Shown here: positions 4,214 to 37,862 of the stretch, in pieces
Layout of the letters: every line of letters begins with the position of its first letter
Numbering within the stretch: the stretch's first letter is position 1
Source of the DNA: an uncultured Candidatus Saccharibacteria bacterium
GTDB taxonomy: Bacteria > Patescibacteriota > Minisyncoccia > Phycocordibacterales > UBA9973
Length of the DNA: 42,262 bases
Assembly (NCBI GenBank): GCA_964368775.1
Contig: CAYJCX010000002.1
Location: forward strand, 1 to 42,262
Reading direction: 5' to 3'
The notes under the pieces: model-generated
The model's input: the letters and a program-made list of their open reading frames with translations, nothing else
Told to the model about the DNA's origin: nothing
Databases searched by the model: none
Made by a program: the position numbers and the translations under genes

Positions 4214-4789
4214 TTAGTCATGGGGATTGTGTGAATATGTGGGGATAACCCGACTTTTTACTGCTAACATGCCACGATCTGCCAGTGCATGATGATTAGG
4301 ACAAAGTAAAGCTAGGTTTTCTATATCATCAGTTCCACCCTTATGTCTAGGAATAATATGATGGACTTCAACTACTTCATCAAAACTACATATAAAACAT
4401 TTACTACCATACATTTGATGTAAGTAACCATATTTCCCAGCTAATTTTAATTGAAATATTTTCTTCTTTTTTTCTTCTTTTATTTCTACTTTTACTTCGG
4501 GTGTTGGATCTAGATATTTTGTAAGATCCTTATATTTTTCTAGTAAAAATTGGAATCTATTATCACTTTCACTTTTATGAATTGAATGGATTACAGTAGT
4601 GTGATCCCTGTTTAAAATCTTTGCTATCCTAGGGTATGAAAGGAAATTAGCCCTACAAAGAGAAATAAACAAATCTCTTGCTTTAACTACTTCAATATCT
4701 CTTGCAGGGCTACTAATTTCTTCCTTAGTAAATCCAGTTTCCATAAAAACTATCTTAAAAACAACCTCTTTTATTTCGTCTATTCGCAT
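4214..4789 (-). CDS. DnaA C-terminal-domain-like HTH fused to an HNH endonuclease
   Basis: 191 aa. The N-terminal SSPARDIEVVKARDLFISLCRANFLSYPRIAKILNRDHTTVIHSIHK matches the DnaA domain IV signature (compare ...ARQIAMYL...IG..FG.RDHTTVLHA). The C-terminal CFICSFDEVVEVHHIIPRHKGGTDDIENLALLCPNHHALADRG is a complete HNH zinc-finger nuclease motif. Confidence 0.8.
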   Translation of the reverse strand: MRIDEIKEVVFKIVFMETGFTKEEISSPARDIEVVKARDLFISLCRANFLSYPRIAKILNRDHTTVIHSIHKSESDNRFQFLLEKYKDLTKYLDPTPEVKVEIKEEKKKKIFQLKLAGKYGYLHQMYGSKCFICSFDEVVEVHHIIPRHKGGTDDIENLALLCPNHHALADRGMLAVKSRVIPTYSHNPHD

Positions 4790-12758: not shown

Positions 12759-13817
12759 TTATTCTTCTCCTGTTACTGTGCTATCTTCAATTTCTATATC
12801 ACTTGGGATATATATATTACTAGCATCTTTAATTTCTTTTAATATAGCGTCTGCCCAGTTTTTGTTTTCTTTTAGGTATTTACGTGATACGTCATAGCCT
12901 ACTCCTAGCTTTTGTCCTTGGAAAGAATATGTGTTACCAGATTTTTCAATAATTTTATATTTATCTCCTAGAGCTATTAATTCTCCCTCATACGATATTC
13001 CCTCGCCGTATAATAGGTCAAATTCTGTTTGTTTAAATGGTGGTGCTACTTTGTTTTTAACTACTTTTACTCTTGTTCTACCTCCAACAACTTCATCACC
13101 TTTTTTAATCTGTGCGATTCTACGAATATCTAGACGTACAGAACTATAGAATTTAAGAGCTTTTCCACCAGTAGTAAATTCCGGATTCACGCCAGGGAAC
13201 GCGCCGATATTCATACGGATTTGGTTAATAAAAATAACTACAGTTTTACTTTGGCTAACGATTGGGACCAGTTTTCTACATGCTTGGGACATTAGTTTTG
13301 CATGTCTTCCAATGATTTGATCTCCCATCTCTCCATCGATTTCTGCTTTTGGGGTTAGAGAAGCTACTGAATCAATAACGATTACAGCAAACTTATTGGA
13401 TCGTACCATGGCATCTACCATCTCTAGCGCGCTCTCTCCGTTCTCTGGTTGGCTCACTAGCAGTGTTCCAGTATCTACCCCGATCTTCTTAGCGTATAAG
13501 GGGTCTAAAGCGTGTTCTGCGTCAATAAAGGCGCAAATACCGCCTGTTTTCTGGGCTTGTGCAACTGCATGTAGAGCTAGAGTAGTTTTTCCACTAGATT
13601 CTGGACCAAATATTTCTACGATCCGCCCGCAAGGATAGCCGCCGATACCTAGAGCTAGATCTAAACCAAATGATCCTGTGGGTATAGCTTCTACATCCAT
13701 ATTAGGGGATTCGTCTAGGATCATTACAGATTCCTTGCCGAATTTACTCCTAATAGCAGTTAGTGTCTCATCTAATGTTTTGCCTGGACTTAAATTTTGT
13801 ATCTTTTTTTTAACCAT
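12759..13817 (-). CDS. recA: RecA recombinase (bacterial type)
   Basis: 352 aa. Colinear RecA signatures [20 protein letters not shown] (Walker A), [46 protein letters not shown] and [19 protein letters not shown]. Confidence 0.95.
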
Positions 13818-15578: not shown

Positions 15579-15836
15579 TTAATTTCCAGAAACAATATTT
15601 TTTATTCTAGATTTTGTCATTGTTTTAGATCCAGACCATGCGCCCATTGCGGCTAATGATGATGCTAGACCTAATAAAACAATATCTCCGGCTAGTCCAT
15701 ATTTAAGTAAACCTATACAGATACCTAGAGTAATTGCTATGTATGGTTTATATTGTGATTTTACGCCAGTCTCACTTAGTATTGCTACTATAGCTATGAC
15801 TGTAGAAACTATATATCCATCTATGATTATTTCCAT
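15579..15836 (-). CDS. holin (putative)
   Basis: 85 aa with three hydrophobic helices and a charged C-terminal tail. It lies immediately downstream of the endolysin. Confidence 0.55.
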   Translation of the reverse strand: MEIIIDGYIVSTVIAIVAILSETGVKSQYKPYIAITLGICIGLLKYGLAGDIVLLGLASSLAAMGAWSGSKTMTKSRIKNIVSGN

Positions 15837-15838
15837 AA

Positions 15839-16915
15839 TTATAATTCTGCTTTTAATATTAAATTAATTCGACCTCTTGTTATTGGACCGACAAAGCCGG
15901 CTGGGGGATTTATGTTATTGTCTTTCTGGAATTTTATTACAGCATTAAGGGTTAATTTTCCAAAAGTATTTGTTTCATTTCCTACTGATCCTGGACCAGT
16001 ATTAGCTATTGGCGCGCCATGAGTATTTAAGAATTGTTGTAGGTATTTAACATCTTTATCTACCATTCCAAAACGTAAATCTTTTAAGAAAGGCGGGATT
16101 TTATCAATTACAATTATATTAGACGATATACACCATGCTTCTGTAAAGTATGGACTCTGGGTATGAAAATGAAAATCAAAGTATCCATCTCTTGCCCAGT
16201 TTTTAGACCAACTATTTGGCCCTGTATCGAGTTGATCGTTTCTTAGACCATTATACTCATTAAGTACCATTAAATGGCCACCTTGCTCCTGTTTTGGCGC
16301 ACGTAGGGGTAATAGATCCTTAGCTTGCCATGAGACATTACCATTTAGGGCTGTATACATGTTTTCACCTACTGCCATCCGGATTATTGGCAACTTGCCC
16401 GCTTCTATTTCTCTTGCTATTGATATTGGCTCTACGTTTACTTTGTAATATCCAGGTATTTTATGTTTAGCAGCGTTCTCTAAGATCTCTTGCGGGATTT
16501 TACCTTGATAGGTTATTTTAAAATGTTGGATAAATTCATCATAACTGCCATCTATTTTAAGATAGTATTGGCTTAATATAGCTTTTTCTGGAATACCATA
16601 TTTATTACTAGCCTTTAACATAGTAAAAGCCGATGATCCCTCTAGTAGATTTTTATCTACCATTACCTTTCCTATTAGATATAACCATTCTTCACAAAGA
16701 CGGATTCCATCTTTGAAATGATTTTCTGCGGACATTCTAGTAGCACATGCAGTACAGATACCTATTTGTCTCTGATTACAAAGATCATTAGTAGCTACAT
16801 GATCTAGATCTACTTTACCTGTTGTATTAGGTAGAGTTCCAATAGTCTTATCGGCTACTACTGTTCGATAATCCTCTTGGGATATTTCAGCACCAAATGA
16901 GATTTTTTCTTCCAT
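15839..16915 (-). CDS. endolysin: papain-like (C1-type) cysteine peptidase + C-terminal peptidoglycan-binding domain
   Basis: The Gln-x5-Cys motif QRQIGICTACA, the His motif GGHLMVLNEY and the Asn motif NSWSKNWARDGYF follow papain order. The C-terminal DVKYLQQFLNTHG...FGKLTLNAVIKFQKDNNI...GFVGPITR matches the PG_binding_1 pattern. Confidence 0.65.
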   Translation of the reverse strand: MEEKISFGAEISQEDYRTVVADKTIGTLPNTTGKVDLDHVATNDLCNQRQIGICTACATRMSAENHFKDGIRLCEEWLYLIGKVMVDKNLLEGSSAFTMLKASNKYGIPEKAILSQYYLKIDGSYDEFIQHFKITYQGKIPQEILENAAKHKIPGYYKVNVEPISIAREIEAGKLPIIRMAVGENMYTALNGNVSWQAKDLLPLRAPKQEQGGHLMVLNEYNGLRNDQLDTGPNSWSKNWARDGYFDFHFHTQSPYFTEAWCISSNIIVIDKIPPFLKDLRFGMVDKDVKYLQQFLNTHGAPIANTGPGSVGNETNTFGKLTLNAVIKFQKDNNINPPAGFVGPITRGRINLILKAEL

Positions 16916-16938: not shown

Positions 16939-19900
16939 TTAATATTTTGCTTTTATTTGATCAAAAGTCCATTCTTTATTCTTGAATTTAGATATTGCTT
17001 CCTGTGCTTGTTTTTTATTTATTGAACCATCTCTTAGTTTTTTACCTAGATAGTTTTCTACTGGTGTATAACTAGCCCATTCTGCTGTAGGAACAAGTTT
17101 AAGATTCTTCTCATTATTACCACCTCCTAGCTCTAATGGAATTGTGTGGTCTAATTTCATTGTAGTTGTATTACCCCCGCGCTTTGTTTTAACCGCTTGG
17201 GATTCATCTTTACTCATACGCTCTACAATAATAGCTCCAGAATCCACACGGCGAATTTTTTGACCTGTGAATATACGGTTGAAAGCTGTAACCGGATCAG
17301 TTCCAATAGCCTTTGCATATGTAACTACTGTATTTACTACACCTAATTTAGAAACCTCTTGGTTGTCTTCATAGATTGGCTTATCTTCTTTAACCATCTC
17401 TGCGATTTGGTCATAGACAGTATCGGTAATAATATCTTTATCCTGTAGATTTGTAGCGTAGGTATTCTTTTCTTCTTTAGTATCTAGCTTGTTTAGCTCT
17501 CCGTAGATATAGCGTGCGCGATCTCCATTCTCTACTCCAAGAGATTTCATTTTCTTTTCATCAGGAGTTAGTTTAGTAGATTGGCCATAGCTATAAACTT
17601 TTTCAGCTAGATCTGGGTTTTCTTCTTCTAATTTTGTGAAAGCGGCGTTAGCTTCTTCTTTAGATGTGTCTGCTAATTTCTTTAGTTCTTCGTATTTAGC
17701 TTGTACTACAAGACGCGCTGCTTTTTCATTGGCAGATTCGGCTTTAGTAGCTTGATCTATAGCACTAGTTGATTCAAGATACGGCTCTCTTAAAATCTTA
17801 GGAATTAAAGATTGCTTAATAGTTCTCATTCCAGGGATCTCTCCTTTTTCATTACGCTCTCCCATACTTCCTAGTAATTGAGAAATAGCACCAGCTAATC
17901 CGGTAGCCCATGATGCAAGACGCGGCACTGCGAATAGAGTTTGTGGATCTAGAGCTTGTAAGAAAGAGAATATATCGTTGTATGCTCTATATTCTAATTC
18001 TTCTATAAGATTTCGGTCTTTCTTATTCTTTAGATCACGGTACATATTACCAATGATAGCCACCATAAGAGCTGTTAGAGTAATAGCGCGGATTAGTTCG
18101 TGCGCTTCTTTAGCCTTAGCAGCAGTTTTAATTTCTCCATTCTTTAATAGTTTTGTTAGAGTAGTTATATTACTTAGAGTTTGAGTTAGAATTGGGACCG
18201 CCCAAGATTTATGTTGTCTAACTGCTGCACCAACAGATGTTTTACCCATAACAGAAGCTAATAGATCATCTGCGCGCCAGCGATTCATTTCATTTTTGAT
18301 TTCAGCTAGTCTTTTTGTAGATACTTTTCCAGATTCAAATTCTTCTTTAGTTAGACTTCCTAGAAGATGGGTAAGATTAGCTTGACGAGCAGCTATGCCA
18401 TAGAAAGCAAATATTGTTTCACCTAATTTACTACCAGCATCTTTAGATTGGTCTTTCATTTTAGTAAAGAATGTTTGACCTACAAAAGATTCATATTTCT
18501 TTATTAGTTCTTTACCCTGTTTTGTCTTTGAGCGGAATAATCCGAGAGCTTGTTTTTGCGCGCCAATGTTTATGAATGTTGCAGCCTGTTCTCCAACAAG
18601 AGACATAGCTTGCGCTGGCACACGGAAAGCAAGGTCAAGGAAACGGGTAAATGTTACCCCAGATCTTATTAGAATATCTAAAGTCCCACCTGGTTTAATT
18701 GGACCAAGTGCTGTAGGACGGCCTTTTTGTGTATTGATCCATTTCTTAACAAAGTTAAGTAGTGATTCATCTTTGATAAGTCCACCCTCTGTTGTCTCTG
18801 TAGGCGTTAGGGCGCGCGCTACGGCTTCCATTTTAGGGATATATCTATCTAGACCTTTCTTAACTTCAAACGTCTTCACGTAGCCCAGAAACGCTCCAGC
18901 GACATTTCTAGATGGAATTAGAGTTCCACTACGCTTCATAGAGTATTTAAAGAATTTCTCTAATGGTAGAACGTCTCCGGTTCTTTCATTAAGAATCTTA
19001 AATGTAGCTTCGTCCATCTTATTTACGTCCCATACTGTTTCTTTAAATGCGCGGGCAAATGCGCCAATAAATTGTTTAGGGGATTTCTTTGCACCATCTT
19101 TTAGCCATGCTTCCAAGAATGAACGTGGACGGTGTGTGTAATAGTTTTCACGTACACGATCAAGCATATCTAATTTAACTAGATAATCCCGCATTTCTGC
19201 ATAGGTATCACGGATATAATGAGCTAGTTCTAATTCAGCCGGTGTCATTGCGGATGCGATCTTAGCCTTTACAGCTTCGTCTCCCTCCTCTAAATATGAA
19301 ACAACTAGATCATCTGTAGGTACTAGACGGTCAATAAGACCACGCTTTCTAGATGCGCGAGCTTTCTTTGTTAATTCATTAGTTTTTTTCTCTATTTCTC
19401 TATAAGCCTTTTCTCCCTCTATCTTAATTTCGTATGCGTCAGCTACCAGGACTTCATAGAAAGGGTTTTGGCGCGCTAGAGATGTAGCAGATCTAAATTC
19501 ATCAAGCCAGTCTGTAGAGATTTGTTTTGCCTGTTCTAGTGTTACTCCAGTTCTCTTAACTAAAACTTCTTCTAGAATTTGTCTTTGTGTCTTTACATGT
19601 GGCAAATCCGTGTTCTTCATTAGAGTTTCAATTTCTCTTTGACCTAAGAAAACATCTCCTTGCTCGAATGTACCTATGATTTCATTTAGTTTATTTAGTT
19701 CTTCTGTAGATAGATTATTTAGATCTTGGGATAGGCCCATAGCTAACTGTAGGTTTTCTACTCTATGTAGATCCTTTTCAGCTATTGTATATTCTACTTC
19801 GGCTATAGCTTGGACATGGCGCGCAATTTCTAGAGCTTTATCTTGGACCTTGTTTAATAGGTTATCAAATTCTGTATCAGTTAGTAGACGAATATCTGCG

Positions 19901-22900
19901 CCGCCTAGAATATCAGCCATCTCTCTATCAGTTAAATAGAAATGATCCCTAATGGCATTTATAGTTTGTTTGCGATCTAATCCTTTTTTGCGTAGTTCTG
20001 CCTTTACAGCTTCAATAACCTTTTTCTTTTCACCTAGGAATTTAGCTTGGCGTTCTTGCGCTTTTAGTTTACTTTGTGGGTTTACAAATTCATTTTTCTT
20101 GTTTACATAGTCGTTATAGTCTTTCTGTGCTTCATCTATGTTTCTGTAACCTAATTCATCTAGAATATCCTGGCCTTTTTTACCAAAGACAGTATCGGAA
20201 CCTATACGTGGTAATTGACCGGTACTCTTTTGGACATATTTACTTAGAGCGCGGGCTTTATGGTTTAAGACTTCTTCTCTACGTGTTTTAGATTCAGCGC
20301 GAACATCAGCTACGAATTGATCTATCTTATCCTTGTTTTCAATCATAGATGCTATGTCTTTAACATCTGCTTTTGTAACAATTTGGTTAGCATAGTCTAT
20401 TGGCTGGCCCTCACTTTCCATTTGGGCGATTTTAGCCAAAGCTAATTCATCCTTTTGGTCTACTATAAAATCTTTAACTTCTCTTTTAACTTGCGCTACT
20501 CTTTCCTTGTGTAGTTGTTTCTTATCCCAGAAATTAGCAAAAGCAGTACGTACTTCTTCTGTGTCTACGTTTCCGTTGTCATCTAAGTATTGTTGAAAAT
20601 CACTAGAATCAAGTAGTGTATCTCCACGTGTAGCAAATTTACCTTTCCCTTTATTCTTTTCATTTCTTCCAAGTATTTCCGGTAGTATTCCCTCTTTCTT
20701 ATTAGCAAATTTAGTTAGGCTATTTAGTGGATCATATTTTAGAGCTTCATTCTCTAGTTCTAGTTGAGTTATTTCTTGTTGTAATTCTGGACTAAGCTCT
20801 ACTTCATTATTTCCTACTTGAATCTTTTTAAATTTAACAGGTGTAGCTCCTGTACGCTTTTCTGCATGCGCTAGTGTTGCGCGTAGATCTGCCATTTTAT
20901 CTCCGGTATCAAAGAATGGATGCTTTTCCATAGGTAGGCCATCTTCGTCTTCATTCTTTTCTCTAAATGCTACTACTGGCGCGTCAGCCATGGATGGGTC
21001 TATTTCTACTTCATACCAAGTTACCCCCATATCATCTGTAATAGGTTTTGCGTCATAGTTATTTTTTAGGTATCGGCCTAGATCTTTTTCATAGAAACGG
21101 TATATAGGGTTATTTGTGTCTACCTTTCCTGAGATGTCGAAGGTTTCTGCCCTACTATGATTACCAAAATCTTTTGCAATTTCTTCTGGTGTGTAGGCTT
21201 CCCATCTGATTCCCAAATTATTTTGGGTTAAATCTTTCGGCACTGCCTTAAACTTTCCATCTCCGAGGACATTGGTGATTATCCAGTCAGAACCAGCTTG
21301 TTGCACTGTTTCGCCAGTTTTCAAGTCGCCAATTTCTAGTTTATCACTAACCCTCTTACCATCTAGTTCGTAGATTCTTCTCCAGTTTGGAGTTTCTCCC
21401 AACCCCTCTACTTTCATAGCTGTTTCACCTGTAGGGAATTGGACATAAGATTTACCGTCTTGTGCTGCTTTCTTTATTTCTTCTCGGACCATGCGGAAGT
21501 GGGCAGTGGGGTCGTTGTATTGAGAAAGTTTAGCTACTTCTGTTTTTCTATTAGCTATTTTAGATTTGTCATAAATCGCGCCGCCTTGTGGAACATTACC
21601 TAATTGCCCTGGAATAATTTTATTTTCAGATGGTATTGATAATTCATTTTCTAAATTGCCTTTCTGGTATAGATCACTTTGGACTTCTATTACTCTACGA
21701 GTAGTATCATCTGCCATGTCTTCTATGCGGGTATGGCCGAAATAGTTAGGAGCATCTCCACCATAATGGATTGATCCAGCGCTAGTTGGAATTGGACTTT
21801 CGTAGACATGTTCTTGGTATTCATAAACTTCACCACGTAGATCAGCAGTTAATGTTGTATTCTCATGGCGTGGCTCTCCCATTGGCCCCTCTGTAACATC
21901 TACCATTTCTAATGGTAGTAATTCTGCTGTAACTTTATCAGCAAAATCTTTAACATTTACTATTTTACCCTCTGTTTCTAAGACGTTTCGTAGTATGTCT
22001 TTCTCTTGTTGTTTTAGATCACTAGCGTTAGTTAGATCTTGGATAAATTGTTTAGATACAGTAGTGCGGCCTTTTAGTTTCTCTAGAGTTTTTAGGGTTA
22101 GATCTAGCTCACCTGTGTATAGTAGGTTTTGTGTAGAGCGCTCTCCATATTTTAGGTTATTGTCTTGGACATCATTTACATATGAATTAATCATTGTATT
22201 ATTGGTCTCAATATCTGGCGCGTTTTCTGCGATCATTGCTACGTGTTCTTGTACCGCTTCTGTGTCTTCTGCCTTTAGGGTAATAGAAGAATAGCCACGC
22301 TTATCTAATTCGTTGTTAATTATATCTATTTGGCGGTCAATATTTAGAGAACGGTCTATAAAAGTATCTAGAGAAATATTAGAATTAAACTTTAGGCCAA
22401 TGAAATTTATAATATCATTAGCTACGTCTTCGTTACTATTCTTAACTATATTTTCTTTAATCTTGTTTATAGTTCTATTCCAGTAGTTTTTGTATGGGTT
22501 ATTAGTATTTTCCCATGCTTGCTTTACTGTCTCTGGGGTTTGTTTTAAGTTTTGGTAGAAATCTGCGCGAGATTCTGGAGATAACTTTAAATACCATGAA
22601 TGGCCCGCAAGCTCATGGTTAATAATTGCTCCGGATTCATATAGATCCGTAGACATTTCATCTGGGTTTAGGTATATGGTATCTTCTGTAAAAGCAGATA
22701 CATATGATCGATCATTATAGCTATCTGTAACTATAACATAAGTTACTCCGCCTTGTGTGGATGTTTGTTCTATTTTGTCTACAAGTTGATTTGAAAAACC
22801 TAAATTACGTAGAAGAAATGGGGTATCTTCTGTTATTCTTGTTCGCTTTCCTCCTGTGAGTTGTTCGTGCTGTCCAACCAGTAGTTTATTGCGCTCTCCA

Positions 22901-24834
22901 TCTTCTCTGGCGTATTTGGAAATCCGTTCGGTCGCTGCCACACTATCCCAACGCTGGCTTGGGACCATGCTTCTTGGACTTCTTCCACTTGAAGACTTCT
23001 CTCTTTGGCTACTTTCTGGTAAACCTGCGCTTCCTGTTCTTGTGTTAGATATGTTTCCATATGCTTTATTATCTTTATTTTCTTGTAATGTGTCAATACC
23101 GTGGGCTTTGTTATAAATTTCTTTTAATTGAGATTTAGTTTTGAAAACTTTATTATTAAATATTTTAATCTCTCCCTCTTCAAGTCCTACTTTACTAATA
23201 ACTGACATATCAATACCGTCAAACCCCTCCTTTTTTGCCCAATTAAATAATAATTCTGTACTTACTTCATCTTCAAATGAGGGTGCGTTTGCTGAACCAT
23301 TTGGATTTATATCATTGTAATCATTAATTAGTTTTTGTGGTATATCTTTTCTTGTAGCTATTTTGGCATTTTTATCAATATAGTATTCGCCAATAGTTGT
23401 TTTTTTACCAGTAGTTGCATCTGCATCCTGTTTAAAACTTTCAGCTATCTCTTTTTTTGTTGTCATTGGTATACCCCATTCAGAATCTCTAACTTCTTCA
23501 CTAAGAACTATTCCACCCCTATAAATAGGCTCTCCTTGTCCTTTTATAAATTCCTCTGGTGTATTATATTTTTTAGCTTCTACTTCTAATTCACTGCTAA
23601 TTTCTGTTTTATTAGCAGTAGATTCGCGTAGGTTAGTACCCTTAAATGTAGTCTCTTGGGCGATTCTTTGAATATTGGCAGTAGTATTTTTAGTAAATTG
23701 CTTACCTAGTTTCTTGTCTTGTTCTATGTGTTGGTCTACAACATTAATAACTTGATCCTCTGGAACTTGGAAAATAGTAGACAAAACTTTTACAGTCTGG
23801 TCTTTGGTTGCGCCGGATTTAGCACTGTCTTCGATAAGAGTACGCAATTTCTTTTGATCTTTTGATTCAAAGTTTATTGCGCCGGCTGTACCAAATAATG
23901 CAGCAATAGGTAGGGTTAATAGAGCTGTTTCTGTTAGCCCCTCATCTAATGGTTTACCAGTTGTCGCGTTACTAATTACTTGTTGGCTAACTTCTTGGCC
24001 TGTTTCAAATAATGTTGTAGTTAAGAATTTTTTAATACCATTTTTAAATCCTGGCTTTGTTACTTCAAAAAATCCACCTAACTTATCTGTAAAATAGTTT
24101 AAAACTAGGTTAGCCCCAAAAGATTTTAGGGATTTTTGCTGCGCTTGTTCTTCTGTATCACCAGCTTTAATAAGGGTTTTATAGTCTTCGTGGGCGTTTT
24201 GTAGAGATTCAAGTCCTGACATTGATAGGTTAGCTAGAAAAGCTGGGGCCTTTGCTAATTTACCTGCTATACCGCCGGCTAGATATGGAACTGTAGAACC
24301 TATACCAGTAGCTAGATTATTAAGATAAGACTTATCTTCTGGCTTCATAGTATCTACCCTTGCGGCAATTTCATTGAAACGCGCGTCTAGATCAATGGGA
24401 GTAGGCGGAGTATATGGGTTGTTAACATCTTTAGGTATTTTACTATTTATTAGATTTATACCTTGTTGGAATCCACCAAGAGTAGAACCTATTGTGTTTA
24501 TTTCACCACCAAAAATATTATTACCTAATTCAGTAATTGTTTTTGCAAAATGAGATTGTTTTACTTTCTGGCCTAATTTAGTTTTTTCTAAAAGAGAAGT
24601 TATAGTAGGAGCCAATGGACCAAGCGCTGTTAAAGCAGTATTTTTAAGGGCTTTTGTTGCTGTTGTAACAGCAGTTGGTAATGAACTAACTGCGGAATCT
24701 ACAGTAGATGGTGTGTTCCAAAAAGAACTACTGTCTTTTGTTGGAGTTGTTTTTTGTGCTTGATCCCAAAAGCCCCCAGTTTCCTTGGGAGCTATTGAAT
24801 TATTTTCTTCTGTGCCTGTGTCCCAAATTCCCAT
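16939..24834 (-). CDS. giant polyvalent-type virion protein (2631 aa) with an HExxH module and a C-terminal HNH/His-Me nuclease motif
   Basis: Single uninterrupted ORF with a Gly/Ala/Thr-rich, partly hydrophobic N-terminus. HELAGH lies at aa 740-745 (nt 22600-22617). A conserved-looking block FGHTRIEDM...RRVIEVQSDLYQKG lies at aa ~1030-1060. There are long K/E-rich coiled-coil stretches and hydrophobic helices in the last quarter. The C-terminal motif is KLDHTIPLELGGGNNEKNLKLVP...VEN (nt ~16942-17253). Confidence 0.75.
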   Translation of the reverse strand: MGIWDTGTEENNSIAPKETGGFWDQAQKTTPTKDSSSFWNTPSTVDSAVSSLPTAVTTATKALKNTALTALGPLAPTITSLLEKTKLGQKVKQSHFAKTITELGNNIFGGEINTIGSTLGGFQQGINLINSKIPKDVNNPYTPPTPIDLDARFNEIAARVDTMKPEDKSYLNNLATGIGSTVPYLAGGIAGKLAKAPAFLANLSMSGLESLQNAHEDYKTLIKAGDTEEQAQQKSLKSFGANLVLNYFTDKLGGFFEVTKPGFKNGIKKFLTTTLFETGQEVSQQVISNATTGKPLDEGLTETALLTLPIAALFGTAGAINFESKDQKKLRTLIEDSAKSGATKDQTVKVLSTIFQVPEDQVINVVDQHIEQDKKLGKQFTKNTTANIQRIAQETTFKGTNLRESTANKTEISSELEVEAKKYNTPEEFIKGQGEPIYRGGIVLSEEVRDSEWGIPMTTKKEIAESFKQDADATTGKKTTIGEYYIDKNAKIATRKDIPQKLINDYNDINPNGSANAPSFEDEVSTELLFNWAKKEGFDGIDMSVISKVGLEEGEIKIFNNKVFKTKSQLKEIYNKAHGIDTLQENKDNKAYGNISNTRTGSAGLPESSQREKSSSGRSPRSMVPSQRWDSVAATERISKYAREDGERNKLLVGQHEQLTGGKRTRITEDTPFLLRNLGFSNQLVDKIEQTSTQGGVTYVIVTDSYNDRSYVSAFTEDTIYLNPDEMSTDLYESGAIINHELAGHSWYLKLSPESRADFYQNLKQTPETVKQAWENTNNPYKNYWNRTINKIKENIVKNSNEDVANDIINFIGLKFNSNISLDTFIDRSLNIDRQIDIINNELDKRGYSSITLKAEDTEAVQEHVAMIAENAPDIETNNTMINSYVNDVQDNNLKYGERSTQNLLYTGELDLTLKTLEKLKGRTTVSKQFIQDLTNASDLKQQEKDILRNVLETEGKIVNVKDFADKVTAELLPLEMVDVTEGPMGEPRHENTTLTADLRGEVYEYQEHVYESPIPTSAGSIHYGGDAPNYFGHTRIEDMADDTTRRVIEVQSDLYQKGNLENELSIPSENKIIPGQLGNVPQGGAIYDKSKIANRKTEVAKLSQYNDPTAHFRMVREEIKKAAQDGKSYVQFPTGETAMKVEGLGETPNWRRIYELDGKRVSDKLEIGDLKTGETVQQAGSDWIITNVLGDGKFKAVPKDLTQNNLGIRWEAYTPEEIAKDFGNHSRAETFDISGKVDTNNPIYRFYEKDLGRYLKNNYDAKPITDDMGVTWYEVEIDPSMADAPVVAFREKNEDEDGLPMEKHPFFDTGDKMADLRATLAHAEKRTGATPVKFKKIQVGNNEVELSPELQQEITQLELENEALKYDPLNSLTKFANKKEGILPEILGRNEKNKGKGKFATRGDTLLDSSDFQQYLDDNGNVDTEEVRTAFANFWDKKQLHKERVAQVKREVKDFIVDQKDELALAKIAQMESEGQPIDYANQIVTKADVKDIASMIENKDKIDQFVADVRAESKTRREEVLNHKARALSKYVQKSTGQLPRIGSDTVFGKKGQDILDELGYRNIDEAQKDYNDYVNKKNEFVNPQSKLKAQERQAKFLGEKKKVIEAVKAELRKKGLDRKQTINAIRDHFYLTDREMADILGGADIRLLTDTEFDNLLNKVQDKALEIARHVQAIAEVEYTIAEKDLHRVENLQLAMGLSQDLNNLSTEELNKLNEIIGTFEQGDVFLGQREIETLMKNTDLPHVKTQRQILEEVLVKRTGVTLEQAKQISTDWLDEFRSATSLARQNPFYEVLVADAYEIKIEGEKAYREIEKKTNELTKKARASRKRGLIDRLVPTDDLVVSYLEEGDEAVKAKIASAMTPAELELAHYIRDTYAEMRDYLVKLDMLDRVRENYYTHRPRSFLEAWLKDGAKKSPKQFIGAFARAFKETVWDVNKMDEATFKILNERTGDVLPLEKFFKYSMKRSGTLIPSRNVAGAFLGYVKTFEVKKGLDRYIPKMEAVARALTPTETTEGGLIKDESLLNFVKKWINTQKGRPTALGPIKPGGTLDILIRSGVTFTRFLDLAFRVPAQAMSLVGEQAATFINIGAQKQALGLFRSKTKQGKELIKKYESFVGQTFFTKMKDQSKDAGSKLGETIFAFYGIAARQANLTHLLGSLTKEEFESGKVSTKRLAEIKNEMNRWRADDLLASVMGKTSVGAAVRQHKSWAVPILTQTLSNITTLTKLLKNGEIKTAAKAKEAHELIRAITLTALMVAIIGNMYRDLKNKKDRNLIEELEYRAYNDIFSFLQALDPQTLFAVPRLASWATGLAGAISQLLGSMGERNEKGEIPGMRTIKQSLIPKILREPYLESTSAIDQATKAESANEKAARLVVQAKYEELKKLADTSKEEANAAFTKLEEENPDLAEKVYSYGQSTKLTPDEKKMKSLGVENGDRARYIYGELNKLDTKEEKNTYATNLQDKDIITDTVYDQIAEMVKEDKPIYEDNQEVSKLGVVNTVVTYAKAIGTDPVTAFNRIFTGQKIRRVDSGAIIVERMSKDESQAVKTKRGGNTTTMKLDHTIPLELGGGNNEKNLKLVPTAEWASYTPVENYLGKKLRDGSINKKQAQEAISKFKNKEWTFDQIKAKY

Positions 24835-24846: not shown

Positions 24847-26052
24847 TTAAAATAGAGGTGCTTTAGTAGTGGTTTTGCCGCCTTTCTTTGTGCTACGTAG
24901 GTATTGCGGTAGTGTTGTATTTTCTGGATTAACCCAATTATTAGGCGGGAATTTAGTTAAGAAATCTTTTTTAGTACCAGGGTATGTGTTATATGCTTCT
25001 TGATATACGTCTGGATCTACATAACCATCTGGCCCTTTAGACGCATTAAGTTTTGATTCTCCGGCTTTAATCATAGAGTTATTTACTGTTGTCTTAGATG
25101 CGGTAGGGCTAACTTTTTTATTAAGTGTAGCTTGTTTTGTTGCTAGAGTAACACCGGCTGTGTCTCTTTTAGCTTTTTCATCTGCAAGAGCTTGTACTAA
25201 AGTAGTTACAGGGATCTTATATTTCTTTGCTACTGCTTGGATAAATTGTTCTTTGTCTATATCTTCTAAAGTATTTAGACTGTCATAAATTTCATGCGCC
25301 TGAATTTCTGCGTTCTTTTGTGTAGCTGTTAATGTTTCATTAAGAGCTTTTAATTCATTAACTTGGTTATTCTTTAGAGTTTTTATGTAGTCCATCTTCT
25401 CTTTTAATAGAGAGAAATTCTTTTCTGTGCGCGCTTGATCTGCTTCTGCTAGAGCTGTAGCCATTTGAGAATCTAGCTCGGCTAGTTTGTCATGGTGCGC
25501 TAATTCTGCTTCTTGAATATGTCCAGCTAAAAGATCTGGAGTTGCTTGCGCAGCATTAGTTTGAATACCTAAAAGTTGTAAACCACCTTTATAACTTTGG
25601 AAGTTCTTTTCTAGGGAATTACTTTGTCTTTGTTTATTTGCTTGGATATTCTTAATAAGAATCTGGGCGGATTTATCGGAAGATGCTGCTAAACCACTTA
25701 GTGCTGCAATATATGGATCAGTTGTACTATTTATATCTGGGTTTGCTGCTTTTGTATTATCTACTGTCTTTTCTGTATTTGGATCTGGGTTTGCACCAGT
25801 TAAACCAAAACGATTAAGCATTAGATCCAGACCAGCGGAATTTTTAGCAAAGTTAGAACGTGAAGTAGATGAAGTAGCTACAAGGTTATTAGCTCCTTGT
25901 AGTTTACTTAGTAGTGCAGTATTTTGTTCCGCTGTACCCATATAGTCTCCGGCTTTACCTAAGCCTTGTGATTCATACATTGGCGCGCGTTCTGCCACAC
26001 TTGGAAGTGGTTTGTTTTGTTTTGAATAGTAACCTGCTAATGTGTTTTCCAT
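24847..26052 (-). CDS. virion-associated coiled-coil protein (putative)
   Basis: 401 aa, Ala/Gln/Leu-rich in the centre, located inside the structural block. Confidence 0.35.
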   Translation of the reverse strand: MENTLAGYYSKQNKPLPSVAERAPMYESQGLGKAGDYMGTAEQNTALLSKLQGANNLVATSSTSRSNFAKNSAGLDLMLNRFGLTGANPDPNTEKTVDNTKAANPDINSTTDPYIAALSGLAASSDKSAQILIKNIQANKQRQSNSLEKNFQSYKGGLQLLGIQTNAAQATPDLLAGHIQEAELAHHDKLAELDSQMATALAEADQARTEKNFSLLKEKMDYIKTLKNNQVNELKALNETLTATQKNAEIQAHEIYDSLNTLEDIDKEQFIQAVAKKYKIPVTTLVQALADEKAKRDTAGVTLATKQATLNKKVSPTASKTTVNNSMIKAGESKLNASKGPDGYVDPDVYQEAYNTYPGTKKDFLTKFPPNNWVNPENTTLPQYLRSTKKGGKTTTKAPLF

Positions 26053-33576: not shown

Positions 33577-33948
33577 TTACTTTTTACTACGTTCTATTAA
33601 TGTCGCTATGTCTAAACCCTGCGTACGCTGGATTTCTACAACAGTTGATAAGGTCTTTTTAATTTCTCCTACATCCGCTTTAATATCTGGAATTTCATGT
33701 AATGCGTGATTAGTTGCAAACTTTCTATTCTGTTCTGCTAAAGTTATATTTTGTTTATGCAATTCCTGCATTATTTCCAAATGACTTTTTTCTAGCTCTG
33801 GGTATTTTTTTTCTTGGGTTCCACGAATTGTGGTTACTACTTTAAATATATTTTTTACGCCAAATTCTCGTAAAAAAAGATATATGACTAATAAGATTAT
33901 TATTGCCCAAGCCGGATTTTCAATTATAAATGTTAATACTTTCTCCAT
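33577..33948 (-). CDS. membrane-anchored coiled-coil protein embedded in the tail module
   Basis: 123 aa with an N-terminal TM segment (AWAIIILLVIYLFL) followed by a helical K/E-rich region. Confidence 0.4.
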   Translation of the reverse strand: MEKVLTFIIENPAWAIIILLVIYLFLREFGVKNIFKVVTTIRGTQEKKYPELEKSHLEIMQELHKQNITLAEQNRKFATNHALHEIPDIKADVGEIKKTLSTVVEIQRTQGLDIATLIERSKK

Positions 33949-37019: not shown

Positions 37020-37862
37020 CTATTGGTAAAGATAACTAATAATAACTATCCCATCGCCACCGGCTGCACCAGGCTGTGCGCCACTTGAATCACCGCCACC
37101 ACCGCCGCCGCCTTGGTTTGCACCGCCAGCAGTAGCAGGAGTGATAGTACCTGGAGAAGCTCCAGCTCCATCGCCGCCGCCGCCGTTTCCGCCTGTTCCA
37201 CCAGGAGCTATGAAAGCGTTATTTTCACTACCACCACCGCCGCCGCCGAAATCACCAGAAAATCCATTAATAGTACAAGTTATTCCAGCGCCACCGTTTC
37301 CTGGAACATTACCAACTGCATTAAATCCTGTTTGGCCTGATCCACCACCGCCACCGGCTGCAAAAGTACCGCTAGAAACTGAATTCCCACCATTAAATTG
37401 AGCGCCAGTCCCTCCACTAACACCGGAAAAGTCAGGACCGCCACCGCCACCATTACCGCCACTAAGACCAGCAGTACCGAAAGTACCACCTCCGCCGCCG
37501 CCTGTAGCTGTAATAGTATCAAAAATTGAATCTCCACCAGTACCGCCGTTTGATCCACCAGTACCGTCACCAGCTGTACCACCAACACCAACGGTAATTG
37601 TATAAGATGTAGCAGTCAATACATGCCCGCCAGCAGTTAATGTTTCACCGCCACCGCCACCACCGCCGCCGCCACCGCCACCGCCGCCCACTACGATATA
37701 CTCACAAGTATCGTCTGTTCCTACTTGGGCTACGTTAAAAAATCCATTACCAACGAATGTATGGACTTTGTAATTCCCAGATGTCGAAATAGAACCACCT
37801 GTAGCTATTGTAAAGATAGTTCCTCCTCCGCCAGTATTAACATGAATACTTTTTCTTGCCAT
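37020..37862 (-). CDS. glycine-rich domain protein (phage tail-associated type)
   Basis: 280 aa. YKVHTFVGNGFFNV...EYIVVGGGGGGGGGGGGGG...YTITVGVGG...GGDGIVIISY matches the known glycine-rich domain pattern (VVGGGGGG ... ITVG.GG ... GG.GIVII.Y). Confidence 0.65.
   Translation of the reverse strand: MARKSIHVNTGGGGTIFTIATGGSISTSGNYKVHTFVGNGFFNVAQVGTDDTCEYIVVGGGGGGGGGGGGGGETLTAGGHVLTATSYTITVGVGGTAGDGTGGSNGGTGGDSIFDTITATGGGGGGTFGTAGLSGGNGGGGGPDFSGVSGGTGAQFNGGNSVSSGTFAAGGGGGSGQTGFNAVGNVPGNGGAGITCTINGFSGDFGGGGGGSENNAFIAPGGTGGNGGGGDGAGASPGTITPATAGGANQGGGGGGGDSSGAQPGAAGGDGIVIISYLYQ
37647..37688 (-). repeat. (GGY)14 trinucleotide tract encoding 14 consecutive glycines
   Basis: The plus strand reads accgccaccgccaccaccgccgccgccaccgccaccgccgcc. 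It is by far the most GC-rich low-complexity patch in the window. Confidence 0.8.

What the first reader, a model, noticed from the sequence alone, without database searches (positions are those of the whole stretch)
16939..24834. 2631-aa single-ORF polyvalent-type protein occupying about 19% of the genome
One uninterrupted ORF strings together several modules. These are a Gly/Ala/Thr-rich and partly hydrophobic N-terminus, and an HExxH module (INHELAGHSWY, nt 22600-22617). There is also a ~380-aa conserved-looking block containing FGHTRIEDM...RRVIEVQSDLYQKG...YRFYEKDLGRYL (nt ~20980-22122). I recall similar HxR...E(V/I)QSD blocks from the large polyvalent proteins of phages and conjugative elements, but I cannot verify this. 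The remaining modules are several hundred residues of coiled coil, a tape-measure-like region with hydrophobic helices, and a nuclease motif at the very end. Its position between the tail genes and the lysis cassette suggests a virion-packaged, injected effector array.
Basis: partly seen in the sequence, partly recalled or inferred. Interest (0 to 1): 0.7.

Follow-up and report, generated by a model that had tools for sequence, protein, structure and literature searches.

The report
Giant modular phage effector protein
One 2631-residue gene, about 19% of this roughly 42-kb phage genome, encodes a "polyvalent" protein: several enzyme-like modules on a conserved carrier domain, most likely packed in the virion and shot into the host at infection. 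It is a new variant of a known strategy, and two of its modules are undescribed.

Summary
The ORF is real: window 16939-24834, minus strand, 2631 aa. The identical ORF occurs in an independent sequencing run, and a 58%-identical full-length ortholog exists.

Pfam, PHROGs, NCBIfam and PDB sequence searches, and tblastn against 50,697 phage records, find nothing significant for it. Homolog mapping resolves seven blocks:
- N-terminal region with a hydrophobic helix
- divergent ART-PolyVal-like module
- HEXXXH (not HExxH) zincin-like module
- a roughly 385-aa "QSD" domain (about 50% identical in over 250 phage proteins; confident model with no PDB fold match)
- helical linker
- an 800-aa all-alpha "carrier" (1532 cluster representatives, at or near the C-terminus; no PDB match)
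- HNH-like C-terminal extension

Carrier relatives carry hallmark polyvalent-protein domains: ART-PolyVal, PBECR5, LPD1, RadC, DNA methylase/helicase, Zeta toxin. They occur in at least 18 arrangements.

By fold, the carrier resembles gp65 of the crAss-like phage phi14:2, a protein detected in virions by mass spectrometry. The protein has no cysteine, against 1.0% in the other window ORFs. So do its conserved upstream partner and 143 of 152 relatives.

Best reading (confidence about 0.65): a capsid-packaged, ejected effector array. A tape-measure role is not supported. Packaging, ejection and all enzyme activities remain inferred.

The parts
16939..24834 (-). Whole gene: 2631-aa polyvalent-type protein with no cysteine
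   Evidence: ORF. Identical ORF in an independent run. Full-length ortholog P0002, 58% identical. No Cys against 1.01% in the other window ORFs, P about 3e-12.
23635..24834 (-). N-terminal region (aa 1-400), mildly Thr/Gly/Ala-rich, with a hydrophobic helix at aa ~300-322 (nt 23869-23937). Function unknown; possibly the leading, membrane-interacting end.
   Evidence: Composition and hydropathy. aa 96-393 is shared with P0171, P0239, P0137 and P0141. No profile hit.
23065..23583 (-). Divergent ADP-ribosyltransferase-like module (aa ~418-590). It reads YRGG where relatives read YHG[ST], and keeps the G-E-I-K-I-F glutamate.
   Evidence: BLAST to 14+ family members, best E 1e-17. It aligns to the Pfam-verified ART-PolyVal stretch of P0003. 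6 of 13 homologous segments hit PF18760 ART-PolyVal (best 2e-18), others hit PARP or DRAT; the query itself has no hit.
22120..23064 (-). HEXXXH module (aa 591-905), putative zincin-like metallopeptidase. HELAGH is at nt 22600-22617.
   Evidence: H, E, H, a distal E (EHVAMIAE) and YW are invariant in 9 aligned segments, with one exception: in P0135 the motif reads HETTH (HExxH spacing). An HEXXXH variant of polyvalent-protein metallopeptidases is described in PMC5512222. No Pfam or NCBIfam hit. Fold not tested.
20965..22119 (-). 'QSD' domain (aa 906-1290): a highly conserved, enzyme-like domain of unknown function (FGHTRIED...RRVIEVQSD...HFRMVREE...PTGETA...NPIYRFYEKD)
   Evidence: 252+ homologs, about 50% identical. 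Invariant H, R, E, R, E, Q, S, D, H, R, R, E, E, D. AF2 pLDDT 82.7, pTM 0.75. No significant PDB fold match, only weak GNAT-like hits with prob <=0.57. No Pfam family in 31 members. No PDB profile hit.
20188..20964 (-). K/E/D-rich helical linker (aa 1291-1549) with a loosely duplicated ~40-aa motif (G.LP.I.G...G.D.L.D)
   Evidence: Composition. Two query stretches align to one region in many relatives. No significant self-repeat by BLAST.
17785..20187 (-). Carrier module (aa 1550-2350): an 800-aa all-alpha domain, the constant chassis of the family. A conserved hydrophobic helix lies at aa ~2248-2268 (nt 18031-18093).
   Evidence: 1532 cluster representatives at E<=1e-3 and 684 at E<=1e-30, at or near the C-terminal end. 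81% identical to P0002, up to 96% in 50-aa windows. AF2 pLDDT 85.5, pTM 0.80. No PDB match. BFVD matches with prob 1.0 to phi14:2 gp65 and crAss-like or 'polyvalent' proteins. Hydrophobic helix conserved.
16942..17784 (-). C-terminal extension (aa 2351-2631) ending in an HNH-like (His-Me finger) motif, LDHxxPLxLGGxN...NL...W..TPVEN, at aa ~2540-2610 (nt 17005-17217)
   Evidence: Conserved in 44 homologs. Present in 47 of 153 carrier proteins and N-terminal in a few. 10 of 14 segments weakly hit PF01844 HNH (best E 0.0017); the query scores E 0.18-0.24, below threshold.
24847..26052 (-). Conserved upstream partner gene (401 aa, low-complexity, Ala/Gln/Asn/Lys-rich, no Cys); candidate co-ejected protein
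   Evidence: Same position in related loci. 66% identical in L009, 31% in L001, and 41% over the C-terminal part in a Patescibacteria-MAG locus. No Cys.

Best explanation
The gene encodes a phage polyvalent protein built on a conserved chassis.

**Proposed mechanism.**
1. It is made late, as part of the structural operon.
2. Its 800-aa all-alpha C-terminal carrier module, probably with the conserved 401-aa protein encoded just upstream, targets it to the inside of the virion as cargo or an ejection protein.
3. At infection it is extruded, at least partly unfolded, through the tail ahead of or with the DNA. The conserved hydrophobic helices may contribute to the membrane-crossing conduit.
4. 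The N-terminal enzyme-like modules then act in the host:
   - an ADP-ribosyltransferase-like module on host proteins or nucleic acids;
   - an HEXXXH zincin-like peptidase that may cut the polyprotein into active pieces;
   - the QSD domain, an unidentified but strongly constrained activity;
   - an HNH-like nuclease.

**Shown here (computationally).** The intact and reproducible ORF, its modular anatomy, the constant carrier with shuffled modules, the hallmark polyvalent domains in relatives, the conserved gene order, the fold resemblance to a virion-verified crAss-like cargo protein, and the cysteine avoidance.

**Inferred.** Packaging, ejection, processing, and every enzymatic activity and target.
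For: 1. **Family membership.** The carrier (aa 1550-2350) is shared with proteins carrying ART-PolyVal+PBECR5 (P0003), LPD1 (P0005), Zeta toxin (P0006) and a DarB-like methylase/helicase/ART/LPD1 array (P0007, 4389 aa). In 16 further relatives Pfam finds ART-PolyVal, PBECR5, His_Phos_1, DnaJ, RadC, N6_N4_Mtase, LPD1, Helicase_C, 2H and Zeta toxin. These are the domains that define polyvalent proteins (PMC5512222).
2. **Constant chassis, variable cargo.** There are 1532 carrier representatives, at or near the C-terminus, in proteins of ~500-4400 aa among those listed. Among 153 relatives there are 18 module arrangements. Against the nearest ortholog the carrier is 81% identical, while the ART-like slot is 18% identical and is replaced there by a module with a ParB-type DGHHR motif.
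3. **Context.** Tail-type genes, then a ~400-aa partner, then the giant gene, then PG-binding endolysin and holin. This order is conserved in L001, L002, L003 and L009. It fits the 'late genes next to virion proteins' context of phage polyvalent proteins.
4. **Link to a virion protein.** The carrier model's best BFVD hit is S0A048 (E 4e-8, prob 1.0, TMq 0.48). This is phi14:2 g065, 'annotation based on experimental MS/MS proteomics analysis'. gp65, gp66 and gp67 are virion proteins, are fused into one polyprotein in some crAss-like phages, and gp65 has a zincin-like domain. hhalign gives a colinear C-terminal match, E 7e-4 but probability only 26%.
5. **Cysteine avoidance.** The protein has 0 Cys in 2631 aa against 1.01% in the other ORFs of the window (P about 3e-12). 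143 of 152 relatives and the partner also have none. phi14:2 gp65, gp66 and gp67 have 0.06-0.09% against 0.25-0.5% in other sampled phi14:2 virion and packaging proteins; gp66 is shown experimentally to enter the host. This fits proteins that must pass a narrow channel unfolded (inference, own knowledge).
6. **Conserved hydrophobic helix** in the carrier.
Against: - No profile library recognises any module of the query itself above threshold.
- The ART-like module has R where relatives have the H of the NAD-binding motif, and gets no Pfam hit.
- The HEXXXH and HNH assignments rest on motifs and sub-threshold hits.
- The link to gp65 is at fold level (TM about 0.48, high rmsd) with hhalign probability only 26%.
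- The virion morphology of this phage is unknown. Portal and capsid candidates match nothing.
- No proteomic or experimental data exist for this family.
- The conserved hydrophobic helix could simply be buried in the core of the fold.
Confidence: 0.65

Rival explanations
1. It is an ejectosome or internal-core protein whose job is essentially structural. It would form the trans-envelope conduit for DNA, like T7 gp14/15/16 or P22 gp7/16/20. The 'enzyme' modules would be degenerate or act only on the cell envelope, so there is no cytoplasmic effector array.
For: - Position at the end of the structural block, with a conserved partner gene.
- Conserved hydrophobic helices.
- Cys avoidance.
- Many proteins carrying the QSD domain also carry SLT or cell-wall hydrolase domains, as T7 gp16 does.
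- None of the query's enzyme-like modules passes a curated threshold.
- 75 of 153 relatives show no recognised module beyond the carrier.
Against: - Relatives carry domains with cytoplasmic targets: DNA methylase/helicase, PBECR RNase, ART, Zeta toxin, RadC.
- The QSD domain keeps about 14 invariant charged or polar residues at ~50% identity across hundreds of phages, which looks catalytic.
- There is no fold match to solved T7 or P22 ejection proteins in the PDB.
- This reading overlaps with the best explanation rather than excluding it.
Confidence: 0.17
2. It is the tail tape-measure protein of a long-tailed phage, decorated with enzymatic domains.
For: - It is the only very long alpha-helical protein in the structural region.
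- It has hydrophobic helices.
- The closest large terminases belong to Bacteroides, Polaribacter, Cellulophaga and Flavobacterium phages, several of which are siphoviruses as far as I recall; morphology was not checked here.
- No other tape-measure candidate is visible.
Against: - No tape-measure family in Pfam or PHROGs hits it, whole or in pieces.
- The carrier gives a confident single-chain model with pTM 0.80, which I take to indicate a defined tertiary fold rather than an extended coil.
- The gene lies after the large beta-rich tail or fibre genes and directly before lysis, not between tail-tube or chaperone genes and the baseplate.
- The protein length upstream of the constant carrier varies from about 0 to about 3500 aa among relatives, which is incompatible with a ruler.
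- The structural relatives include crAss-like podoviruses.
Confidence: 0.07
3. It is a polyprotein precursor. Several ordinary virion or early proteins are translated as one chain and always separated by the HEXXXH peptidase or a prohead protease, so the giant ORF has no function as a unit.
For: - crAss-like phages fuse gp65, gp66 and gp67 into a polyprotein thought to be cleaved.
- Metallopeptidases are proposed as processing enzymes of polyvalent proteins.
- The QSD domain and the HNH-like module also occur in other, shorter proteins.
Against: - Only 9 of 153 carrier proteins have the HEXXXH module, so processing by it cannot be general.
- No separate carrier gene was found next to the shorter QSD proteins.
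- The N4 virion RNA polymerase, with a comparable peptidase domain, is packaged unprocessed.
- This rival differs from the best explanation only in when and whether cleavage occurs.
Confidence: 0.09
4. It is an artefact: several genes fused by sequencing or assembly error, or a chance ORF.
For: Its extreme length, and the lack of any database annotation.
Against: - The identical ORF is present in an independent run.
- A colinear 2647-aa ortholog exists.
- Hundreds of long relatives exist.
- Two regions give high-confidence AF2 models.
Confidence: 0.02

Closest known systems
Phage polyvalent proteins (Iyer, Burroughs, Anand, de Souza & Aravind 2017, J Bacteriol; PMC5512222)
   Same: - A giant multi-module protein in the late or virion gene block.
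- An ART-PolyVal-like module and an HEXXXH metallopeptidase-like motif, a variant explicitly described there.
- A nuclease-like module.
- Relatives on the same chassis carry PBECR5, LPD1, RadC, the methylase-helicase dyad, 2H and Zeta toxin.
- Modules are shuffled between close relatives.
   Different: - The query has no Pfam-threshold hit to any polyvalent-protein domain.
- Its two best-conserved modules, the QSD domain and the 800-aa carrier, are in no Pfam family, LPD families included.
- No MuF or portal fusion was found.
- The organisation has a fixed theme (variable N-terminal modules, constant carrier at or near the C-terminus, conserved partner gene), which that paper did not describe.
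crAss-like phage virion cargo proteins: Cellulophaga phage phi14:2 gp65 (with gp66 vRNAP, gp67); PhicrAss001 gp47/gp49/gp50
   Same: - Large alpha-helical proteins encoded at the end of the structural block.
- Detected in virions by MS/MS and ejected into the host.
- gp65 carries a zincin-like domain.
- The three are fused into one polyprotein in some phages.
- Strong cysteine depletion.
- The carrier model matches gp65 (Foldseek E 4e-8, prob 1.0).
   Different: - No significant sequence similarity: the carrier HMM misses gp65, and hhalign probability is 26%.
- There is no RNA polymerase (DFDxD/DPBB) module here, and no fold match to the solved gp66 structure.
- The genome is 42 kb rather than about 100 kb.
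Coliphage N4 gp50 virion RNA polymerase and its ejection proteins (Schitoviridae)
   Same: A giant (about 3500 aa) capsid-packaged protein that is expelled into the host. It contains a zincin-like metallopeptidase domain in the region needed for encapsidation (PMC5512222).
   Different: No T7-like RNA polymerase domain. No sequence or fold match was found.
Podovirus ejection or internal core proteins (T7 gp14/gp15/gp16; P22 gp7/gp16/gp20)
   Same: The gene position relative to tail genes, the presence of a partner gene, hydrophobic segments, and the presumed passage through the tail in unfolded form. Shorter proteins with the QSD domain often carry an SLT domain, as T7 gp16 does.
   Different: No fold match in the PDB search. 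This protein is far larger and carries modules with presumed cytoplasmic targets.
Phage P1 DarB/DdrB head-packaged anti-restriction proteins
   Same: Very large head-packaged, injected proteins. The relative P0007 has a DarB-like methylase-helicase array. The nearest ortholog P0002 has a ParB-type DGHHR motif, reminiscent of DdrB.
   Different: The query itself has neither domain, and there is no sequence similarity.
Tail tape-measure proteins
   Same: Long, alpha-helical, with hydrophobic helices, and sometimes carrying lytic domains.
   Different: Wrong gene position, no profile match, a confidently modelled fold, and a variable length upstream of a constant module.

Membership tests
Polyvalent proteins (Iyer et al. 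2017) | Two or more domains of disparate biochemical activity in one polypeptide | tested here: met
   At least four enzyme-like modules (ART-like, HEXXXH, QSD, HNH-like) were delimited by independent homology to different protein sets. The activities themselves are inferred.
Polyvalent proteins (Iyer et al. 2017) | Hallmark domains (MPTase, ART-PolyVal, PBECR, LPD, methylase-helicase and others) recognised by profiles | tested here: inconclusive
   The query has no Pfam hit at E<=5. Proteins sharing its carrier do hit ART-PolyVal, PBECR5, LPD1, RadC, N6_N4_Mtase, Helicase_C, 2H and Zeta toxin. The query's ART-like segment is homologous to segments that pass PF18760.
Polyvalent proteins (Iyer et al. 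2017) | Encoded by a phage or conjugative element next to late or virion genes | tested here: met
   Terminase, tail-type, endolysin and holin-like genes flank it. The synteny is conserved.
Polyvalent proteins (Iyer et al. 2017) | Delivered into the host with the DNA at the start of infection | not testable with these tools
   Only indirect support: fold similarity to the virion protein gp65 and Cys avoidance.
Zincin-like metallopeptidase (polyvalent-protein MPTase, HEXXXH variant) | HEXXH/HEXXXH helix plus a downstream Glu ligand, conserved across homologs | tested here: met
   H, E, H and a distal E are invariant in 9 aligned segments; one of them (P0135) has HExxH spacing. The variant is described in PMC5512222.
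Zincin-like metallopeptidase (polyvalent-protein MPTase, HEXXXH variant) | Profile or fold match to a zincin family | tested here: not met
   No peptidase family hit in Pfam or NCBIfam for the query or 7 homologous segments.
ART-PolyVal (PF18760) | Pfam gathering-threshold match | tested here: not met
   The query segment has 0 families at E<=1. 6 of 13 homologous segments match, best 2.2e-18.
ART-PolyVal (PF18760) | Conserved catalytic positions (H/R, S/T, E) | tested here: inconclusive
   The alignment shows YRGG in place of YHG[ST]. The MTT and G-E-I-K-I-F positions are retained. R-S-E type ARTs exist (own knowledge), so this is compatible but unproven.
HNH / His-Me finger nucleases | DH...N...N/H core motif with a profile match | tested here: inconclusive
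   LDHxxPLxLGGxN..NL..W..PVEN is conserved in 44 homologs. PF01844 is hit weakly by 10 of 14 segments (best 0.0017); the query scores E 0.18-0.24, below the cutoff.
Tail tape-measure proteins | Profile match, gene position between tail chaperones and the distal tail, extended coil, length acting as a ruler | tested here: not met
   No tape-measure family hit. The gene follows the tail or fibre genes. A confident single-chain model, pTM 0.80. Variable length upstream of the constant module.
crAss-like gp65-type virion cargo proteins | Homology to phi14:2 gp65 | tested here: inconclusive
   Foldseek gives E 4e-8, prob 1.0, TMq 0.48. The sequence profile gives only E 7e-4 and probability 26% over the C-terminal 123 columns. 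The carrier HMM does not find gp65.
GNAT acetyltransferases (for the QSD domain) | Significant fold or profile match; acetyl-CoA binding motif | tested here: not met
   Most of the top 50 Foldseek PDB hits are GNATs, but with E>=0.16, prob<=0.57 and TM<=0.38. No GNAT Pfam hit in 31 members.

The most novel reading that the evidence does not exclude
The 800-aa all-alpha carrier, together with its cysteine-free partner protein, would be a widespread, undescribed protein-delivery chassis of uncultivated phages. It is represented by 1532 clusters at 50% identity. It occurs in MAGs labelled Bacteroidales, Patescibacteria, Omnitrophota, Smithella and Pseudomonadota, and is distantly related to the crAss-like gp65 cargo family. 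The roughly 385-aa QSD domain it carries here would be a new enzyme family with a fold absent from the PDB, which many short phage genomes deliver into their hosts. Near-total cysteine avoidance would then be a simple sequence signature for predicting ejected phage proteins.
Probability: 0.3. Interest if true: 0.65.

Novelty: new variant of a known kind. Interest (0 to 1): 0.5.

Why it matters
Polyvalent proteins are thought to be the first weapons a phage fires into a cell, but almost none has been studied experimentally.

This locus offers a compact, tractable example. One gene takes about a fifth of a 42-kb genome, and in a relative about a third of a 38.7-kb contig.

It also shows a clear design rule: a constant carrier plus a partner gene, with interchangeable effector modules.

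Three things follow:
- **The carrier** could explain how very large cargo is loaded into and expelled from small capsids. It links an abundant uncultivated phage group to the crAss-like cargo system.
- **The QSD domain** is a strongly constrained domain of unknown function. It is present in hundreds of phage proteins and has no Pfam family or solved structural relative.
- **Cysteine avoidance** gives a cheap predictor for ejected proteins.

The effector modules are candidates for anti-defence or host-takeover activities and for new enzymatic reagents.

Tried and rejected
**Direct annotation of the query: nothing significant.**
- Pfam, PHROGs and NCBIfam on the whole protein, on ten 400-aa pieces and on seven module pieces.
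- tblastn of the whole protein and of the carrier against 50,697 phage records: no match, or only chance hits.
- PDB sequence searches with the protein and with profiles of the QSD, carrier and ART alignments: only coiled-coil noise.

**Fold searches against the PDB.**
- QSD model: no significant hit. The recurrent weak GNAT matches were considered and not accepted.
- Carrier model: no hit, including no match to T7 or P22 ejection proteins or to phi14:2 gp66.

**Other negative results.**
- Pfam scan of 31 proteins with the QSD domain: no shared family.
- Carrier HMM against the loci of the shorter QSD proteins and against phi14:2: no separate carrier gene and no gp65 hit.
- Morphology could not be settled. 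The portal and capsid candidates match nothing in the PDB or the phage collection.
- Self-BLAST for internal repeats: none significant.
- Promoter and terminator scan around the gene: nothing above shuffled expectation that sets it apart.
- No terminal repeat at the window ends.

**Rejected readings.**
- Tape measure: position, confidently modelled fold, variable length.
- Virion RNA polymerase: no DPBB/DFDxD, no fold match.
- Assembly artefact: independent assemblies and orthologs.


Full report

The ORF listing finds one ORF at 16939..24834 on the minus strand, starting with ATG, 2631 aa. It covers 18.7% of the 42262-nt window.

It sits in a tight same-strand gene array. There are 12 nt to the upstream stop and 23 nt to the next start. 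No convincing promoter or terminator flanks it.

It is not an assembly accident:
- The identical product is called on a contig assembled from a different run, ERR4405440.
- A colinear 2647-aa ortholog, 58% identical, exists in SRR29078161.

**2. Direct annotation fails.**

None of these searches gives a significant hit:
- Pfam, PHROGs and NCBIfam, on the whole protein and on pieces
- the PDB sequence library
- tblastn against 50,697 deposited phage genomes

The phage as a whole is very divergent. Only a large terminase, RecA, an HNH endonuclease, a glycine-rich protein, one 'minor tail protein' and a peptidoglycan-binding endolysin-like protein are recognisable. The closest terminases come from phages of Bacteroidota: Bacteroides, Polaribacter, Cellulophaga and Flavobacterium.

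**3. Anatomy from homologs.**

Searches of metagenomic protein collections and local BLAST and HMM mapping split the protein into blocks. Each block has its own set of relatives.

| Block | Residues | Key findings |
|---|---|---|
| a. N-terminal region | aa 1-400 | Mildly Thr/Gly/Ala-rich, hydrophobic helix at ~300-322, shared with four other giants |
| b. ART-like module | aa ~418-590 | Aligns to the Pfam-verified ART-PolyVal stretch of P0003. 6 of 13 homologous segments pass PF18760 (best 2e-18), others hit PARP or DRAT. The query has YRGG instead of YHG[ST] and gets no hit. |
| c. HEXXXH module | aa 591-905 | The motif is HELAGH, with four residues between the histidines. H, E, H, a distal Glu and a YW pair are invariant in nine aligned segments; one of them (P0135) has HExxH spacing. 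Iyer et al. describe this HEXXXH variant among polyvalent-protein metallopeptidases. No profile hit; fold untested. |
| d. 'QSD' domain | aa 906-1290 | See section 4 |
| e. Linker | aa 1291-1549 | K/E/D-rich, helical |
| f. Carrier | aa 1550-2350 | See section 5 |
| g. C-terminal extension | aa 2351-2631 | Ends in LDHxxPLxLGGxN...NL...W..TPVEN, conserved in 44 homologs. 10 of 14 segments weakly hit Pfam HNH. The query scores E 0.18-0.24, so it is HNH-like but below threshold. |

**4. The QSD domain.**

The best 120 all score E<1e-94 and are about 50% identical over aa ~906-1290.

Most are proteins of 1000-1260 aa on phage-sized contigs of 30-47 kb, with the domain at the C-terminal end. A few carry SLT or cell-wall hydrolase domains upstream. 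Two examples sit at or within the structural gene block.

Fourteen charged or polar residues are invariant in 96 sequences: H, R, E, R, E, Q, S, D, H, R, R, E, E, D.

Evidence on its fold and family:
- AlphaFold2 with this alignment gives a confident alpha/beta model, pLDDT 82.7 and pTM 0.75.
- Foldseek finds no significant PDB match. The best E is 0.12. Most of the top hits are GNAT acetyltransferases, at probability <=0.57 and TM <=0.38.
- No Pfam family is shared by 31 members.
- A profile search of PDB sequences finds nothing.

I treat it as an uncharacterised, probably catalytic domain. A GNAT-like core is only a lead.

**5. The carrier.**

An exhaustive HMMER search with aa 1550-2631 against 1.84 billion cluster representatives finds 1532 proteins at E<=1e-3 and 684 at E<=1e-30. 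Among those listed:
- The 800-aa stretch lies at or near the C-terminal end.
- It occurs with or without the HNH-like extension.
- The host proteins are ~500-4400 aa long.

It is the most conserved part against the nearest ortholog: 81% identical, and up to 96% in 50-aa windows.

AlphaFold2 predicts an all-alpha fold with pLDDT 85.5 and pTM 0.80. I take this as a defined tertiary fold rather than an extended coil, although compactness was not measured directly. The PDB holds no match; the best E is 0.83.

The BFVD library of predicted viral structures gives 34 matches at E<=1e-3, all at probability 1.0.
- The best is S0A048 of Cellulophaga phage phi14:2: E 4e-8, TMq 0.48.
- The rest include several crAss-like phage proteins and many 'large polyvalent protein associated domain-containing', 'ART-PolyVal', 'DNA methylase' and 'lysozyme' giants of uncultured phages.

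S0A048 is g065 (gp65, 1421 aa), annotated from MS/MS of virions. According to Drobysheva et al. (bioRxiv 10.1101/2020.03.07.982082):
- gp65, the virion RNA polymerase gp66, and gp67 are all virion components.
- They are fused into one polyprotein in some crAss-like phages.
- gp65 has a zincin-like domain.

The PhicrAss001 structure paper (PMC10172136) describes such proteins as cargo that is stored in the capsid and extruded partly unfolded.

At the sequence level the link is weak. hhalign of the two family alignments gives a colinear match of the C-terminal 123 columns at E 7e-4, but probability is only 26%. That match covers a hydrophobic helix, an acidic D-x-K-D-x-S-F motif and a terminal E-x-Y-K-x-G motif.

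The hydrophobic helix at aa ~2248-2268 is conserved in character across the family.

**6. It belongs to the polyvalent proteins.**

Proteins sharing the carrier include:
- ART-PolyVal+PBECR5 (P0003)
- LPD1 (P0005)
- Zeta toxin (P0006)
- a 4389-aa DarB-like array with Eco57I methylase, SNF2/helicase, ART-PolyVal and LPD1 (P0007)

Sixteen further giants add His_Phos_1, DnaJ, RadC, N6_N4_Mtase, 2H and methyltransferases.

With HMMs of my own modules, 153 carrier proteins fall into 18 arrangements:

| Module | Proteins with it (of 153) |
|---|---|
| Carrier | 153 |
| HNH-like | 47 |
| ART-like | 39 |
| QSD | 18 |
| HEXXXH | 9 |

Even the nearest ortholog has swapped one slot. Where the query has the ART-like module (18% identity over aa 401-590), P0002 has a stretch with a ParB-type DGHHR motif.

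This combinatorial use of disparate enzymatic domains in a virion-gene context is the definition of polyvalent proteins (PMC5512222).

**7. Context.**

On the minus strand the order is:
1. capsid-region genes
2. a glycine-rich protein
3. several beta-rich proteins of 430-1021 aa, one a 'minor tail protein'
4. a 134-aa protein
5. a 401-aa low-complexity protein
6. the giant gene
7. a PG_binding_1 endolysin-like protein
8. an 85-aa protein with hydrophobic segments, holin-like

The same order holds in the loci of P0002, P0003 and P0007: tail genes, a protein of about 400-490 aa, the giant gene, then lysis genes.

The upstream protein is itself conserved: 66% identical in L009, 31% in L001, and 41% over the C-terminal part in a Patescibacteria-MAG locus.

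The carrier also occurs in MAGs labelled Patescibacteria, Omnitrophota, Bacteroidales, Smithella and Pseudomonadota. One copy lies on a 5.2-Mb Smithellaceae chromosome, which suggests a prophage.

**8. Cysteine avoidance.**

The protein has no cysteine at all. The other 28 ORFs of the window average 1.01% Cys, which gives P about 3e-12 for zero in 2631 residues.

The pattern extends further:
- The partner protein has none.
- 143 of 152 family members have none.
- In related loci, the giant and its partner are Cys-free while their neighbours are not.
- The shorter QSD proteins and their upstream neighbours are also Cys-free.
- phi14:2 gp65, gp66 and gp67 have 0.06-0.09% Cys, against 0.25-0.5% in other sampled phi14:2 virion and packaging proteins. 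gp66 has been shown to enter the host.

Avoidance of cysteine is what one expects of proteins that must pass a narrow conduit unfolded and cross an oxidising periplasm. That is an inference from what is known of other translocated proteins (my own knowledge). The ejection-protein papers listed do not mention cysteine.

**9. Mechanism and rivals.**

The best-supported picture (confidence about 0.65) is a capsid-packaged, ejected effector array on a conserved carrier, as laid out in the best explanation.

The rivals:
- **Purely structural ejectosome role (0.17).** It overlaps with this picture. The cytoplasm-directed domains of relatives and the catalytic-looking conservation of QSD argue against it.
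- **Tape measure (0.07).** It is contradicted by gene position, the confidently modelled fold, the absence of tape-measure profile matches and the variable length upstream of a constant module.
- **Obligate polyprotein (0.09).** It differs mainly in the timing of cleavage. Only 9 of 153 relatives have the HEXXXH module.
- **Artefact.** Excluded.

**10. Novelty and score.**

The kind is known: phage polyvalent proteins and virion cargo proteins.

Four things are not described in the libraries and papers I could search:
- the 800-aa carrier as a constant chassis with a conserved partner gene
- its fold-level link to crAss-like gp65
- the QSD domain family, with no Pfam family and no PDB fold match
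- the near-absolute cysteine avoidance

I therefore rate it a new variant of a known kind, interest 0.5. All functional statements remain computational inference.

Noticed in passing
window 16939-24834 and 24847-26052; L001, L003, L004, L005; L006/L007 (phi14:2): The giant protein, its upstream partner and 143 of 152 family members have no cysteine at all. Neighbouring genes have normal Cys content. The virion-ejected proteins gp65, gp66 and gp67 of phi14:2 are likewise depleted (0.06-0.09% against 0.25-0.5%). This may be a general signature of ejected phage proteins.
   Followed up: partly
L003 10001-23170 (P0007): A relative on the same carrier is 4389 aa long. That is 13.2 kb of a 38.7-kb contig, about a third of the sequence. 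It has Eco57I-type methylase, SNF2/helicase, ART-PolyVal and LPD1 domains (DarB-like).
   Followed up: partly
L009 10001-17944 (P0002, aa ~480-540): The nearest ortholog (58% identical overall) has a stretch with a ParB/sulfiredoxin-type DGHHR motif where the window protein has its ART-like module. This is a one-slot module swap between close relatives. Pfam did not recognise the stretch.
   Followed up: partly
window 24847-26052 (-): This 401-aa low-complexity protein, rich in Ala/Gln/Asn/Lys, is a conserved partner. It always lies immediately upstream of the carrier gene in related phages and in MAG loci. It has no family assignment.
   Followed up: partly
L004 10001-13366; L005 9081-12662 and about 250 other proteins: The QSD domain mostly occurs at the C-terminal end of proteins of 1000-1260 aa, in other phage contigs of 30-47 kb that lack the carrier. 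Some of these proteins have SLT, transglycosylase or SleB-type hydrolase domains upstream (T7 gp16-like layout).
   Followed up: partly
L016 (Smithellaceae chromosome OY821638.1, 450509-462752); L010-L017: Carrier-bearing genes occur in MAGs labelled Patescibacteria, Omnitrophota, Bacteroidales, Smithella and Pseudomonadota. One lies in a 5.2-Mb chromosome, suggesting a prophage. The host range of the family therefore looks very broad, unless some are binning errors.
   Followed up: no
window 37020-37862 (-): A 280-aa protein that is almost entirely Gly-rich, including a run of 14 consecutive glycines. It matches Pfam Gly_rich_2 (PF21722) and phrog_2295, and lies among the tail or fibre genes. 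A similar gene occurs in L003 and L005.
   Followed up: no
window 12759-13817 (-): A full-length RecA homolog (PF00154, E 3e-122) is encoded by the phage. It is conserved at the same relative position in L001, L002 and L009.
   Followed up: no
window 4214-4789 (-), 2066-3505 (-), 44-2005 (-): An HNH endonuclease gene lies just upstream of the small ORF and large terminase, followed by a 653-aa portal-sized ORF with no detectable homologs. The window ends fall between this ORF and the capsid-region genes, with no terminal repeat. This fits a (nearly) complete, circularly permuted genome.
   Followed up: no
window 15839-16915 (-) and 15579-15836 (-): The endolysin candidate has a C-terminal PG_binding_1 domain and an unassigned N-terminal catalytic part. 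Relatives instead have VanY/Peptidase_M15_4 there. The 85-aa protein downstream has hydrophobic segments (holin-like).
   Followed up: no
window 20188-20964 (aa ~1370-1400 and ~1530-1560): A loosely duplicated motif of about 40 aa (K..G.LP.I.G....G.KG.D.L.D) lies in the linker just upstream of the carrier. It is also visible in the family consensus. It might be a docking or cleavage site. Self-BLAST does not find it significant.
   Followed up: partly
window 33577-33948 (-): A 123-aa protein with an N-terminal transmembrane-like helix sits in the middle of the large tail-type genes.
   Followed up: no
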